Shown: positions 50,713-61,670 of the stretch, piece after piece | Numbering within the stretch: position 1 is the stretch's first letter | How the letters are laid out: each line of letters opens with the position of its first letter | Assembly (NCBI GenBank): GCA_019058245.1 | Contig: JAHPZJ010000014.1 | Coordinates: 32,001-96,000, forward strand | Length of the DNA: 64,000 nucleotides | Source: Promethearchaeota archaeon | GTDB lineage: Archaea; Asgardarchaeota; Lokiarchaeia; Sigyniarchaeales; SOKP01 | Reading direction: 5' to 3' | Program-made: the position numbers and the translations under genes | Notes under the pieces: model-generated | Told to the model about the DNA's origin: nothing | What the model saw: the letters and a program-made list of their open reading frames with translations, nothing else | Databases searched by the model: none

Positions 50713-52080
50713 ATGGTCGATTTTGATAAAATTATTGACTTCTTTAATAATATGGATATTCCTAAAAATATGCTTAATAGAGGTCAACTGGTTTTAAATG
50801 AGTTTATGAATCCAATAAAAATCCTCTTTCAACAAAGATCTGTACCTCAAGAACCTTGGGCAGATGATCAAATAGAATTCCTCCTCCAGACGCTTTCAAA
50901 TATGGATACAGATAAAGATAAGAATGCTGCTAGAGTAGGTGAACGAGAAGCAAGAATTGCTTCTAAACTTCATTTAAAAACGTCAGCTGGATTCTGTCAT
51001 GGTGTTGGAAGAAGTGGTTTTTTAACAGCTCCTCAACCTAAAGCCCCTGGAGGTTCTATAATGTATGAACTTTCCAACTATTTAGCCAGAAATATTTTAA
51101 AAAATTTTGGTTTACCAAACATCAAGGACGCCATTGTAGTTCCATTATGTACTGGAATGTCATTATCCTTATCATTAGGGGCTCTAAAATCGGCTCAATC
51201 TAAAAAATCCTCTCATATCAAAAGAACAGTATTAGTACCCCAAATCGATCACCAATCGCTTCTGAAATCAATTAATTTACTGGGTTATAAAACAAAAATT
51301 ATCGAAGGGAAAATTTTTGGAGATGCTGTGAGGATTCCAGTTGAAGATATAACAAGTAATTTAGATGAGGACTGTTTTGCGGTAATCTCTGTAACTAGTT
51401 TTTTTCCACCCCGAGAGCACGATAATATTAAGCAAATAAGCAAATTTGCTAAAGAAAATAATCTTATTCATATCGTCATAAACGCATATGGTGTACAAAG
51501 TCCCGAATGGATGGCACTTATTAAATCTGCAATTGATGCGGGGAGAGTAGATGCAATAATTCAATCAACTGATAAAAATTTTCTTACCCCTGTTGGTGGC
51601 TCGTTAATAGCCTCACCAATCAAAGAAAATATAGTCAAAATAAGTCAAGCATATGCAGGTCGTGCTTCAGCAACTCCAGTTGTAAATTTTTTGATTTCAA
51701 TGTTATCATTAGGAATTTCTGGTTATCAAAAATTAATTACAGAGCAACAGCAGAATCGAAAAATTCTTGAAAGTAAACTAAGAGAAGTAGCTGAAAATAT
51801 TAACGAGAGAATACTTGATGTCTTCAATCCAGTTGCGGTAGGTATATCACTAAACACTCTAAAACAAGACCAATTATACGCACTTGGTGGAGCTTTATAT
51901 AATTTGAGAGTTACAGGACCAAGAGTATATAATCCTAATGAAAAAGCATTTGGAACATGCTGTAATAATTATATTACTCCTTATATTGTAATGAATGCTG
52001 CAATTGGAGCAACTGAAAACGATATTCTGTCTGCTGTTGAGAGATTTAAAAAAGCATATAGACAAATTGTTAAAAAATAA
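50713..52080 (+). CDS. spcS: O-phosphoseryl-tRNA(Sec) selenium transferase (SepSecS)
   Basis: MDTD, VGEREAR, HGVGRSG…QPKAPG, TGMSL, NAYGVQ, QSTDKNF.TPVGG, YAGRAS. Confidence 0.95.
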   Translation: MVDFDKIIDFFNNMDIPKNMLNRGQLVLNEFMNPIKILFQQRSVPQEPWADDQIEFLLQTLSNMDTDKDKNAARVGEREARIASKLHLKTSAGFCHGVGRSGFLTAPQPKAPGGSIMYELSNYLARNILKNFGLPNIKDAIVVPLCTGMSLSLSLGALKSAQSKKSSHIKRTVLVPQIDHQSLLKSINLLGYKTKIIEGKIFGDAVRIPVEDITSNLDEDCFAVISVTSFFPPREHDNIKQISKFAKENNLIHIVINAYGVQSPEWMALIKSAIDAGRVDAIIQSTDKNFLTPVGGSLIASPIKENIVKISQAYAGRASATPVVNFLISMLSLGISGYQKLITEQQQNRKILESKLREVAENINERILDVFNPVAVGISLNTLKQDQLYALGGALYNLRVTGPRVYNPNEKAFGTCCNNYITPYIVMNAAIGATENDILSAVERFKKAYRQIVKK

Positions 52081-53041: not shown

Positions 53042-53246
53042 TGGGCCATCGGGGATTTTCATGCTCAACCTAACCAATCGAGCCAATTTGAACCCCGGAT
53101 TTCCTGTATAGAAGATAATCCCTCCTAAATCTCAGGTTTTTACTTTCTCGGACATCATTTTTTTGTGCGTCCGATGGTCATTTATAAGACCTGCGCTTGT
53201 TGACCAAGCATACAAAACCTCGTTAACCAAGCTAAGCAAATGGCCC
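53042..53246 (-). tRNA. tRNA-Ile (UAU) with four introns
   Basis: Exons 53246-53224, 53198-53182, 53137-53131, 53100-53087, 53055-53042 join into a canonical 75-nt cloverleaf GGGCCAT TT GCTT AGCTTGGTTA AAGC G CAGGT CTTATAA ACCTG AGATC CGGGG TTCAAAT CCCCG ATGGCCC A. Confidence 0.88.
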
Positions 53247-53387
53247 AAGTCAATTGAAAATGTTTAATTATTATAAACTAATTAAATCAGAAAAAAGATA
53301 AAAATTTTTATCTTTTTAATTTATAATTGAAATAATAAAAAGAGACTTTAGTTAAGTACAAAAAATTTTTGAAGTTGTTGATATACA

Positions 53388-53807
53388 ATGGCTGAAATGT
53401 TAACAGACCTCCTTCAGAATATTTATAAAAGAATTGCACAATTAGGACAAGCAATTCAAGAGCTTAAAAGAACTTTAGATGAGCTAAATCAAAATATTGA
53501 ACAAAAAATTTCAAATTTAACAGAAAAATTAGAAGAATTTTCTAATGAGATTAAAGTTACTCAAACTAAGCATGTCGATGCTGTATTGGAAATAGGAAAA
53601 GATACTACAAAAGAATTGAAGACTATTCAAGAAGGTTTGGGGTTAGAAGCTTTAAAAAATCTAATTAAAAAACTTGAAGATTTTGCTAAACTTTCTGAGG
53701 GTGTTCTCAATCAAGATACAGTAAATTTACTATTATCTGAAGCAATTGACTCTGTTAAAAATCTCAAAGAATCTCTCAAAGAAGAAGAACAAGAGGTAAT
53801 GGAATAA
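53388..53807 (+). CDS. Coiled-coil protein
   Basis: Heptad pattern throughout; N-terminus resembles the next gene. Confidence 0.7.
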   Translation: MAEMLTDLLQNIYKRIAQLGQAIQELKRTLDELNQNIEQKISNLTEKLEEFSNEIKVTQTKHVDAVLEIGKDTTKELKTIQEGLGLEALKNLIKKLEDFAKLSEGVLNQDTVNLLLSEAIDSVKNLKESLKEEEQEVME

Positions 53808-53833
53808 ATAAATTTAAATGTAATCAAAATAGG

Positions 53834-54262
53834 GTGAAAAAAATGGCTGAACAGTTATTAGATGAGATGATACAGAAAATAAATCAAATTATGGCTTCTT
53901 TAGATGGAACTATAGCACAAATTAACCAAATGAGTGGAGCTATTAATCAAATGACTCAAAACTTTTCTGAACAAACAGTTGCAATGACAGAAAATATTAG
54001 ATTAATTGTAGAAGTCTTAAAACAATTTAGAGTACAATCTAGTAAAAATTTGCAGGAACTTTCAGATGATTTTAACCAAAAAGTCAAAGAACTGTGGGAT
54101 AAAAAATCTATCGAAGCAATTACAGAAGAAGAAAAGAAAACAATTGGGATTATAAAAAAAGCTTCAAAAGCAGTGACCGATAATCTCTATTTTGCTCAAT
54201 TACTAAACATCATACAATCTATAAGAGAAGAAACAAATAGAATAATTAGTGCTAATCAATAA
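53834..54262 (+). CDS. Coiled-coil protein, probable paralog of the preceding gene
   Basis: MAEQLLDEMIQKINQI vs MAEMLTDLLQNIYKRI; same length class. Confidence 0.7.
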   Translation: MKKMAEQLLDEMIQKINQIMASLDGTIAQINQMSGAINQMTQNFSEQTVAMTENIRLIVEVLKQFRVQSSKNLQELSDDFNQKVKELWDKKSIEAITEEEKKTIGIIKKASKAVTDNLYFAQLLNIIQSIREETNRIISANQ

Positions 54263-54337
54263 TAAATTTTTAATTTTTTTCTACTTATTCTCAATTTAGA
54301 TTAATAAATAAAACATAAAAAAGGTGGAATTTTACTC

Positions 54338-55243
54338 ATGCCAATGGGGTGTTTTGTGATACTGCTTCCCAATGACGCTGATTATAGGGTATTGGGATAT
54401 TATTTTAAGGAGAGTAAATCAGAATTTGAAATTTCAAATGATTTATTTCTTAGACTTAATCTTGATCATTCAAAAAATGAATATAATTTATTAAAATTGA
54501 AGGATTATCAAATTTTCTCATATCTCCATAGTTTTAAGGGTAAATTAACGCGAAAGGCATCTGGACTTATCATTGGTCTCCTCTTAAATGAGAATGATGA
54601 ACTAGAACAATTCCGATCATCTCTTAAAGCAGGAGCAGAAGCATTTGAAATTCCAAGTCTCGATATTTTAACAAAATCCAAAGATGAATTTGAAATGCTG
54701 TTAAAGGATATTTACTTAGAACATTTAGAACCCTTAATGGATAGCTTAGAACCTGAAGCTCTAAAAAATAACGTTATTAATATCACTAAATTTATGCTTA
54801 GTGGCGGAAAAAAAGAAAGAAAAACTGCTCAAGAGCTCCTCGAAAAAATTGAAATAGGAGAACATAAAAAAATCTCAGAATGGTACGAAATAGCTGAAAA
54901 TGCGATTAAAACGTTAGATTATGAGAAAGCAGGTAAATTTTACTTAAAAGCAGCTGAAATGGCTGAAGCTTTATTTGTAATGGATATTGCAACCTTCCTT
55001 AAAGAAAAAGGTGTTTTTTCTAAGCAGTTTCCCGATCTATTAAAAGAAAGGGAAAAAATTGTACAAGAGGCTCGAAATGCCCTTAGAAATGAAGATTTTC
55101 ATCAAGCATATACCTTTTACAGAAAAGCAAGCATAATTTCTAAAAAACTTATCCAATATGATAAAGAAGAGGAATATAGGTTAAAATCAAAAGCATTAGA
55201 AGATTTTTATAAAATTGATGAAAAATATAGAAAAAATAAATAA
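54338..55243 (+). CDS. Hypothetical protein: possible longin-like N-terminus plus two MIT/TPR-like helical repeats
   Basis: MPMGCFVI… beta-rich start; A.NA….DY/F..A..FY.KA repeated twice. Confidence 0.5.
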   Translation: MPMGCFVILLPNDADYRVLGYYFKESKSEFEISNDLFLRLNLDHSKNEYNLLKLKDYQIFSYLHSFKGKLTRKASGLIIGLLLNENDELEQFRSSLKAGAEAFEIPSLDILTKSKDEFEMLLKDIYLEHLEPLMDSLEPEALKNNVINITKFMLSGGKKERKTAQELLEKIEIGEHKKISEWYEIAENAIKTLDYEKAGKFYLKAAEMAEALFVMDIATFLKEKGVFSKQFPDLLKEREKIVQEARNALRNEDFHQAYTFYRKASIISKKLIQYDKEEEYRLKSKALEDFYKIDEKYRKNK

Positions 55244-61539: not shown

Positions 61540-61670
61540 GCAACGGTTGCCTAGCCCGGTACGGCGCCGGCTTGGAGATAAATTCTTCCCAAAAAGCCGG
61601 TGTGGGTATCCACTCGGGGGTTCGAGCTATGAGGAAATTCTTCTTATAGGAATAAATCCCTCCCGTTGCG
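61540..61670 (+). tRNA. tRNA-Ser (GGA) with two introns (61578-61594 at canonical 37/38; 61626-61655 in the T loop)
   Basis: Acceptor GCAACGG/CCGTTGC, anticodon stem CCGGC/GCCGG with GGA at 61574-61576, long variable arm GTGG-GTAT-CCAC, G73; BHB helices TTGG/CCAA and GTTC/GAAT. Confidence 0.9.

What the first reader, a model, noticed from the sequence alone, without database searches (positions are those of the whole stretch)
53042..53246. tRNA gene split by four bulge-helix-bulge introns, including a 7-nt exon
Seen in sequence: this GC-richer intergenic stretch on the minus strand becomes a complete 75-nt cloverleaf only after four segments are removed. They are 53223-53199 (25 nt, position 21/22, central helix TGGT/GTCA), 53181-53138 (44 nt, 38/39 or 37/38, relaxed motif TTAT/GTAA), 53130-53101 (30 nt, 45/46, CCTG/CAGG) and 53086-53056 (31 nt, 59/60, TTCA/TGAA). 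Cutting after the second base of each 3-nt bulge gives exactly the expected junctions. Established: multi-intron archaeal tRNAs are best known from Thermoproteales, where I know of up to three introns, so four would be at or beyond that extreme. Inference: intron 3 carries CAGG, which competes with the 5' anticodon stem for exon 3, so splicing probably needs ordered refolding and a broad-specificity endonuclease. Standard tRNA finders would probably miss this gene.
Basis: partly seen in the sequence, partly recalled or inferred. Interest (0 to 1): 0.9.

Follow-up and report, generated by a model that had tools for sequence, protein, structure and literature searches.

The report
Four-intron tRNA-Ile(UAU) with ACA-box intron
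This is a real isoleucine tRNA gene of an Asgard archaeon cut by four introns, a load already reported in this group, but the intron beside its anticodon is always kept and folds back into a conserved hairpin ending in "ACA" that probably calls in the pseudouridine enzyme Cbf5 to modify the tRNA's own anticodon, which may explain how archaea lacking the usual enzyme TiaS read the AUA codon.

Summary
Confirmed. Removing the four segments gives a perfect 75-nt tRNA-Ile(UAU). A blind search recovers the same model, shuffles never do, and relatives lacking introns 1, 3 or 4 fix those junctions. The host is a Lokiarchaeia archaeon with an (αβ)2 endonuclease and RtcB, and TiaS was not found. Four introns is no record: a 2026 preprint reports up to five in Asgard, and I found at least 15 other four-intron genes. 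Earlier notes of this scan already found UAU with TiaS loss on other DNA.

The new point is intron 2. It is present in every Ile(UAU) gene I retrieved (83 in this family, 25 other Asgard, 58 Nanobdellota). Its 5' arm pairs back on nucleotides 29-32, leaving the anticodon in a loop. Exactly 13-14 nt later comes ACA (78/79 in this family, 10/10 in five other Asgard families, 17/58 Nanobdellota, 0/23 CAU controls). This matches the box H/ACA ruler and the T-arm-to-CCA spacing that Cbf5 reads. Inference (about 0.6): the precursor directs its own Ψ34, perhaps also Ψ36, before intron 2 is spliced last. No RNA or enzyme data.

The parts
53042..53246 (-). pre-tRNA-Ile(UAU) gene, 205 nt, 75 nt after splicing; CCA not encoded
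53224..53246 (-). exon 1 (positions 1-21)
53199..53223 (-). intron 1, 25 nt, position 21/22, strict BHB; absent in some other family members
53182..53198 (-). exon 2 (positions 22-38) with the anticodon
53184..53186 (-). anticodon TAT (U34 A35 U36); proposed pseudouridylation target
53138..53181 (-). intron 2, 44 nt, position 38/39, relaxed BHB; anticodon-loop intron kept in every ortholog retrieved
53176..53179 (-). GACC arm of intron 2, complementary to tRNA 29-32; closes the anticodon into a hairpin loop (G opposite C32)
53169..53174 (-). 5' strand of the intron-2 stem (P1-like), TCGGAC
   Evidence: 90 compensatory cells vs 27.5 in shuffles
53164..53166 (-). ACA box, 13 nt after the G opposite C32
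53148..53153 (-). 3' strand of the intron-2 stem, GTCCGA
53140..53143 (-). GTAA, intron strand of the BHB central helix of intron 2 (pairs 33-36); alternative to the hairpin fold
53131..53137 (-). exon 3, 7 nt (positions 39-45): A39 is the last bulge base of intron 2's 3' site, CCTG is intron 3's central helix, AG is intron 3's 5' bulge
53101..53130 (-). intron 3, 30 nt, position 45/46; present or absent among congeners
53087..53100 (-). exon 4 (positions 46-59)
53056..53086 (-). intron 4, 31 nt, position 59/60, strict BHB; present or absent among congeners
53042..53055 (-). exon 5 (positions 60-73, discriminator A73)
53271..53277 (-). TATA-like box 25-31 nt upstream, inside a stretch conserved upstream of orthologs; may also serve the divergent gene at 53388
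   Evidence: separate hits of query 1-34 (inference)

Best explanation
SHOWN (sequence and comparison): the gene encodes the AUA-reading tRNA-Ile(UAU) of a Lokiarchaeia archaeon whose lineage lacks TiaS. Its four introns sit at BHB motifs. Introns 1, 3 and 4 are optional passengers gained and lost among relatives; intron 2 is always kept and has a conserved second fold. INFERRED (splicing): the (αβ)2 endonuclease cuts each BHB and RtcB ligates. Intron 2's GACC holds the 5' anticodon strand, which frees exon 3 for intron 3's helix, so intron 3 leaves before intron 2 and intron 2 leaves last. INFERRED (function of intron 2): in its second fold the anticodon loop caps a 12-13-nt helical stack followed by NN-ACA. 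This copies the T-arm/acceptor-stem/CCA spacing of a tRNA (G to ACA equals C61 to CCA, putting U34 where U55 is) and the lower half of a box H/ACA guide (U34 about 14-15 nt from ACA). Cbf5, probably with Gar1/Nop10, docks on the stem and ACA and converts U34, possibly also U36, to pseudouridine in cis. The RNA then switches to the BHB fold and is spliced. The modification would sharpen AUA over AUG reading and keep U34 away from wobble-U modifying enzymes, replacing agmatidine.
For: Gene and junctions. TiaS not found in 0/61 relatives or 0/77 family genomes, against 163 other Asgard genomes that have it; the UAU arm is in 73/77 family genomes; AUA is 37.3 per 1000 codons. An anticodon-loop intron is present in all 83 family genes, all 25 other Asgard genes and 58/58 Nanobdellota genes, nearly all found by exon-only patterns. 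ACA at 13-14 nt: 78/79 distinct introns in the family, the exception being AUA; 8/12 f2, 1/1 f3, 10/10 in f8, f17, f18, f21, f26. The spacing holds although the arm pairs with the intron's 3' half in Lokiarchaeia and with tRNA positions 21-32 elsewhere. G opposite C32 in 58/58 Nanobdellota. Stem covaries. Controls: 0/23 CAU-tRNA anticodon introns in TiaS-bearing genomes, 0/38 other introns of this genome, chance about 6% per intron. The two folds are near-isoenergetic, mean difference -0.9 kcal/mol. Cbf5 is in this genome and in 56/58 of those Nanobdellota, where no full-length Pus10 was found. Precedents: PUA domain binds P1+ACA, n+15 ruler, and one guide makes two pseudouridines in an unpaired UVUN only with ACA (PMC7075261); guide-free Cbf5 acts on T-arm-like hairpins (PMC6138745); yeast pre-tRNA-Ile(UAU) gets intron-dependent Ψ34/Ψ36, and the intron blocks ncm5U34 (PMC11408192).
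Against: No RNA, modification or enzyme data. ACA is not universal: only 17/58 Nanobdellota (NCA 28/58), and absent in 4/12 f2 and in the single f4 and f7 genes, although those genomes have Cbf5. There is no 5' guide strand, upper stem or K-turn. The loop is 6-8 nt and lacks the T-loop C56, and U33 could be the target instead of U34. Positions 29-32 are invariant within the family, so that helix shows no two-sided covariation, and its one-sided changes are also transitions. Genomes are related, so counts overstate independence. Nop10 was not found in this 76%-complete genome. Mycoplasma mobile reads AUA with an unmodified U34 (PMC3575796). The folding model gives intron 1's helix probability 0, so its order predictions are soft.
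Confidence: 0.6

Rival explanations
1. The intron-2 hairpin is protective only: it hides U34 from wobble-U modifying enzymes or delays splicing, and the mature anticodon is unmodified UAU, with AUG rejected by the ribosome as in Mycoplasma mobile.
For: The hairpin (G opposite C32) is universal while ACA is not. Unmodified U34 works in M. mobile. In yeast the intron blocks ncm5U34.
Against: Does not explain a fixed 13-14-nt spacing to ACA kept across six Asgard families with different pairing partners. Protection would end once the intron is spliced.
Confidence: 0.15
2. The element directs anticodon modification, but by another enzyme (Pus10, TruA or TruD/Pus7 type), or in trans from the excised intron or a second precursor, as the Haloferax tRNA-Trp intron does.
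For: This genome has Pus10. The known intron-borne archaeal guide acts in trans (PMC11408192). Yeast uses a stand-alone Pus1.
Against: No full-length Pus10 in the 58 Nanobdellota genomes that carry the hairpin. In most lineages the lower stem is made with the tRNA's own 21-32 strand, so the excised intron has no stem. ACA is the known Cbf5 anchor. TruA/TruD were not surveyed.
Confidence: 0.15
3. Intron 2 is merely old. Its motifs are inherited remnants or serve splicing only (outer helix and a folding timer), and the whole gene is an ordinary multi-intron Asgard tRNA.
For: Intron 1 is also conserved in sequence within the genus. TGAC doubles as the outer BHB helix in some orthologs.
Against: Stem and loop sequences have turned over completely between families while the G, the spacing and ACA stay. 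No intron-less allele in 166 genes, whereas the other introns come and go. CAU controls lack the motif.
Confidence: 0.09
4. The four-intron model is a chance construction or a pseudogene.
For: No transcript evidence could be obtained.
Against: Nulls never approach it. The mature sequence is almost invariant across congeners while introns diverge. It is the only AUA reader found in a genome with 3.7% AUA codons.
Confidence: 0.01

Closest known systems
Multi-intron tRNA genes of Asgard archaea (Valentin-Alvarado 2024, PMC11291895; bioRxiv 10.64898/2026.10.13.758758)
   Same: Several short BHB introns at non-canonical positions, repeated gain and loss, no copying between tRNA genes, (αβ)2 endonuclease; up to five per gene reported.
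   Different: Their focal classes are Jordiarchaeia and Atabeyarchaeia; the main text does not mention Lokiarchaeia, Ile, UAU or TiaS and assigns no function to any intron.
tRNA-Ile3(UAU) of TiaS-less archaea: Nanoarchaeum equitans, Ca. Korarchaeum cryptofilum, ARMAN-2/4/5 (PMC6000648, bioRxiv 10.1101/614032, PMC3239211)
   Same: UAU anticodon replacing agmatidine-CAU; anticodon-loop intron in Korarchaeum and ARMAN-2.
   Different: Here the intron is at 38/39 with three more introns. The papers read report no back-folding hairpin, ACA box or modification route; by my survey the element extends to these lineages.
Eukaryotic pre-tRNA-Ile(UAU), intron-dependent Ψ34/Ψ36 by Pus1; three-intron gene of Cyanidioschyzon merolae (PMC11408192, PMC9602550, PMC3728597)
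   Same: Same isotype, retained anticodon intron that pairs with the anticodon region, anticodon intron spliced last in C. merolae.
   Different: Eukaryotes use the stand-alone TruA-family Pus1; the archaeal intron carries an ACA at Cbf5 spacing instead. Modification here is predicted, not shown.
Box C/D guide inside the Haloferax volcanii tRNA-Trp intron (reviewed in PMC11408192)
   Same: A tRNA intron carrying the information to modify position 34 of its own tRNA.
   Different: That is a C/D guide for 2'-O-methylation acting in trans; here no conserved C/D boxes, an ACA-type signal, and probably action in cis.
Archaeal box H/ACA sRNAs, including those guiding Ψ35 in Sulfolobales pre-tRNA-Tyr (PMC2651775), and guide-free Cbf5 activity on T-arm-like hairpins (PMC6138745)
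   Same: Lower stem followed by ACA, target U about 14 nt from ACA, anticodon of an intron-containing precursor as target.
   Different: No separate RNA, no two-sided pocket, no upper stem or K-turn; guide half and target are one molecule.

Membership tests
Archaeal multi-intron (BHB) tRNA gene | Spliced product is a complete cloverleaf | tested here: met
   ARAGORN tRNA-Ile, 21/21 stem pairs
Archaeal multi-intron (BHB) tRNA gene | BHB or relaxed BHB at every junction | tested here: met
   4/4 central helices; intron 2 has no exon-side helix and only a weak intron-side one
Archaeal multi-intron (BHB) tRNA gene | Inserts absent from compact homologs at the same junctions | tested here: met
   Met for introns 1, 3, 4; intron 2 is never absent
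Archaeal multi-intron (BHB) tRNA gene | Broad-specificity EndA and RtcB encoded | tested here: met
   alpha subunit with the loop Lys, beta subunit, RtcB (PMC5829648)
Archaeal multi-intron (BHB) tRNA gene | Spliced RNA detected | not testable with these tools
   No RNA holder listed
tRNA-Ile3(UAU) of TiaS-less archaea | Genomic TAT anticodon on an Ile-type body | tested here: met
   TAT, A37, A38, A73; identity elements from own knowledge
tRNA-Ile3(UAU) of TiaS-less archaea | TiaS lacking | tested here: met
   Not found in G000, 0/61 relatives, 0/77 family genomes
tRNA-Ile3(UAU) of TiaS-less archaea | tRNA-Ile2(CAU) lacking | tested here: inconclusive
   Only one CAT gene, elongator-Met-like, among 30 tRNAs of a 76%-complete genome
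Box H/ACA guide RNA | Lower stem followed by an ACA/ANA box | tested here: met
Box H/ACA guide RNA | Target U 14-16 nt from the box | tested here: met
   U34, if U33 faces the base before the G; counted against the n+15 rule in PMC7075261
Box H/ACA guide RNA | Two-sided pseudouridylation pocket | tested here: not met
   Only the 3'-side pairing (29-32) is conserved
Box H/ACA guide RNA | Upper stem with K-turn or K-loop; separate trans-acting RNA | tested here: not met
   No such element in alignment A1; the element is part of the precursor
Box H/ACA guide RNA | Cbf5-dependent pseudouridylation of the target | not testable with these tools
   Cbf5 gene present; activity untested
Intron-encoded box C/D guide (tRNA-Trp type) | Conserved C and D boxes in the intron | tested here: not met
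   No conserved C or D box in the consensus of 61 orthologs

The most novel reading that the evidence does not exclude
Across TiaS-less archaea (many Asgard lineages, Nanobdellota, Korarchaeota) the anticodon intron of tRNA-Ile(UAU) is a cis-acting half-H/ACA element. It makes the anticodon loop mimic a T-loop and recruits Cbf5 to write a ΨAU or ΨAΨ anticodon. This would be a self-guided tRNA modification, the missing AUA-decoding mechanism of these archaea, a function for an archaeal tRNA intron, and a possible forerunner or parallel of the intron-dependent ΨAΨ anticodon of eukaryotes.
Probability: 0.5. Interest if true: 0.85.

Novelty: new variant of a known kind. Interest (0 to 1): 0.66.

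Why it matters
The intron count is within what is now reported for Asgard archaea. The retained intron bears on two open questions: how archaea without TiaS keep AUA (Ile) apart from AUG (Met), and whether tRNA introns do anything. The model names an enzyme, a target base and three mutable features (ACA, the G opposite C32, the 13-nt spacing), and it can be tested with purified archaeal Cbf5 complexes or with RNA from cultivated Ca. Lokiarchaeum ossiferum, which carries the element. If true, eukaryote-like AUA decoding with an intron-dependent pseudouridylated anticodon already exists among the closest archaeal relatives of eukaryotes, by a different enzyme. I found no paper describing the element in the library searched, which lacks most subscription journals.

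Tried and rejected
ARAGORN and Rfam on the raw window: nothing. Sequencing runs: no RNA holder was listed, so no reads were laid; this is no evidence either way. Four introns as a record: rejected. Copying of these introns from other tRNA introns of the genome: no match above shuffles. 37/38 register for intron 2 in this gene: rejected on pairing. Box C/D guide in intron 2: no conserved boxes. Cross-pairing of intron 2's TGAC with intron 1's GTCA: not consistent across orthologs and absent where intron 1 is missing. Nested introns in the 59-nt Leu(GAG) insert: no strict two-intron split found. Pus10 as the common enzyme: disfavoured (the weak hits there lie on the Cbf5 gene). Correlating ACA loss with Cbf5 loss: not possible, Cbf5 is in nearly all genomes. 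One search used a structure string misplaced by one column and is replaced. The metagenome scan and the covariance model contained ACA in the query, so they show breadth, not frequency; frequencies come from exon-only patterns. The bacterial promoter scan does not apply. tRNAscan-SE was not available.

Full report
1. The observation. The joined 75 nt are called tRNA-Ile with anticodon TAT by ARAGORN, all stems paired. ARAGORN and Rfam see nothing in the raw window. Each junction has a 4/4 central helix and 3-nt bulges; introns 1 and 4 are strict motifs, intron 2 lacks the exon-side helix. A blind search combining a general archaeal tRNA profile with BHB-gated skips returned the same four introns. 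On reversed and shuffled genomes it never exceeded 13 of 21 stem pairs, and 1000 shuffles of the locus reached at most score 25.8 against 43.2.

2. Comparative proof. Orthologs were found in all 36 congeners searched. In 30 loci aligned without using the motif, the mature sequence is nearly invariant, introns 1 and 2 are always there, and introns 3 and 4 are present or absent with clean read-through. Other family members lack intron 1. Further optional sites occur (17/17a, 58/59), and 12 orthologs have a 6-nt exon. The 7-nt exon is the smallest that lets the two neighbouring motifs form without sharing a base: one bulge base, four helix bases, two bulge bases (what the sequence shows).

3. Host and machinery. 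The neighbouring SepSecS matches Promethearchaeia (Lokiarchaeia) genomes. The genome (76% complete) has two endonuclease paralogs: an alpha subunit closest to Aeropyrum pernix alpha, keeping the loop lysine and the Tyr/His/Lys triad, and a beta subunit without the histidine. Asgard (αβ)2 enzymes with this loop are described in PMC5829648. RtcB, Cbf5, Pus10 and a weak Gar1 match are present; Nop10 was not found. My census found 30 tRNA genes, 25 with introns, this one the most interrupted. Its introns resemble no other intron of the genome.

4. The intron count is not new. PMC11291895 reports multiple introns in over half of the tRNA genes of three Asgard genomes. bioRxiv 10.64898/2026.10.13.758758 reports up to five in one gene. 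I found four-intron Ile(UAU) genes in at least 10 other family members, two in family f21 at 21/22, 37/38, 45/46 and 59/60, and three four-intron CAU-anticodon genes in family f27.

5. The anticodon. UAU is rare in archaea (2 of 167 genomes, PMC6000648) and goes with loss of TiaS (PMC3239211). TiaS was not found in 61 relatives, in 77 genomes of this family, or in families f2, f4-f8, f17, f18, f21 and f26, but is in 163 other Asgard genomes. The UAU arm is in 73/77 family genomes. AUA makes up 37.3 per 1000 codons, twice AUG. Earlier notes of this scan reached the same reading on other DNA.

6. Intron 2 is different. It is longer (44-57 nt in the family) and present in all 83 family genes, in all 25 genes from other Asgard families and in 58/58 Nanobdellota genes found by an exon-only pattern in a phylum sample where TiaS was 0/151. 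Its layout is fixed. A G near the intron start faces C32 and the next bases pair with 31-29, closing the anticodon in a 6-8-nt loop. Thirteen (69 cases) or 14 (9 cases) nucleotides after that G comes ACA in 78 of 79 distinct family introns; the exception is AUA. Between them lies a stem with strong covariation (90 two-sided cells against 27.5 shuffled), while the BHB helix is also kept (99.6% paired), so both folds are conserved. The folds differ by -0.9 kcal/mol on average; in this gene the hairpin fold is favoured, -15.8 against -12.9, and it is the minimum-energy fold of the whole precursor.

7. The element is wider than this family. ACA at the same offset occurs in 8/12 f2 genes, including Ca. 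Lokiarchaeum ossiferum and Harpocratesius, in 1/1 f3, and in 10/10 genes of five families outside the class. Outside Lokiarchaeia the arm pairs with the tRNA's own positions 21-32 instead of the intron's 3' half, yet the spacing is the same. Metagenome hits with the motif lie next to proteins assigned to Korarchaeota, Woesearchaeota and Nanoarchaeia. In Nanobdellota the G is invariant (58/58) but ACA is in only 17/58, NCA in 28/58. It is also missing in 4 f2 genes and the f4 and f7 genes. Controls are clean: 0/23 anticodon introns of CAU tRNAs in TiaS-bearing genomes, 0/38 other introns of this genome, chance about 6%. Relatedness inflates these counts; the recurrence across families with different stems is the stronger argument.

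8. Mechanism (inferred). In a tRNA, 13 nt run from C61 to N73 before CCA, and U55 is the second base of the loop (own knowledge). In the intron fold, 13 nt run from the G to ACA and U34 is the second loop base. [quoted passage not shown] The anticodon U34-A35-U36-A37 is such a UVUN. Cbf5 with Gar1 modifies T-arm-like hairpins without a guide (PMC6138745), and H/ACA complexes can modify a pre-tRNA anticodon (PMC2651775). In yeast the Ile(UAU) intron is needed for Ψ34/Ψ36 and blocks ncm5U34 (PMC11408192). Cbf5 is the enzyme shared by the carriers: 56/58 Nanobdellota have it and none showed a full-length Pus10. I therefore propose cis-directed Ψ34, possibly Ψ36, by Cbf5, followed by a switch to the BHB fold. 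The folding model gives intron 3's helix a probability of 0.75-0.79 while intron 2 is present and 0.02-0.14 after it is gone, which suggests intron 3 before intron 2 and intron 2 last, as seen for the C. merolae Ile(UAU) gene (PMC3728597). The same model fails to form intron 1's helix, so this order is tentative.

9. Membership and verdict. The gene is a member of the multi-intron BHB tRNAs and very probably of the tRNA-Ile3(UAU) class. The intron element is not a member of the box H/ACA family: it has no two-sided pocket, upper stem or K-turn. It plausibly works like the lower half of one. No RNA holder was listed, so expression, splicing and modification are unshown. Literature searches found no description of the element, nor did the scan's notes name ACA or Cbf5, although one noted a conserved, unexplained structure in this intron. 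Four introns alone would score about 0.3; the conserved, testable element raises the finding to 0.66.

Noticed in passing
window 61540-61670 (+): A second tRNA missed by ARAGORN: tRNA-Ser(GGA) with two introns (37/38, 17 nt; 58/59, 30 nt).
   Followed up: partly
genome G000, 30 tRNA genes: Most non-canonical introns are 28-33 nt AT-rich hairpins unrelated in sequence, which suggests a length-setting insertion process; Leu(GAG) and Leu(TAA) carry 59- and 52-nt inserts that may be double introns.
   Followed up: partly
L239 around 1693 on the minus strand (G100, family f21); L238 around 1711 (G093, family f18): cbf5 is frameshifted after the GTLD motif by a 35-nt (L239) or probably 41-nt (L238) insert with a BHB shape whose removal restores the frame, like the crenarchaeal cbf5 pre-mRNA intron.
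   Followed up: partly
L018, L021, L027, L028 and others: Orthologs with introns at 17/17a and 21/22 leave a 6-nt exon, so the two motifs share one base and cannot form fully at once.
   Followed up: partly
L218, L221, L222 (family f27): CAU-anticodon (Met-like) tRNA genes with four introns and a conserved 56-57-nt anticodon intron; several CAU anticodon introns share a short AAGGG/AGGC-like motif of unknown role.
   Followed up: no
G010 (C359, C5), G027 (C189, C566), G047 (C777, C1092): Two different Ile(UAU) genes in one assembly, most likely bin contamination.
   Followed up: no
window 50713-52080 (+): SepSecS gene 1 kb from the tRNA; my census did not recover tRNA-Sec in this assembly.
   Followed up: no
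window 53388-55243 (+): Divergent genes: two helical proteins of about 140 aa and a 301-aa protein without a confident Pfam match; other scan notes read them as a longin-TPR module.
   Followed up: no
L408 (G407, contig 490,885 bp): A genome of the size of Nanoarchaeum equitans (own knowledge) has a 19-nt Ile(UAU) intron with a strong back-folding hairpin but no ACA.
   Followed up: partly
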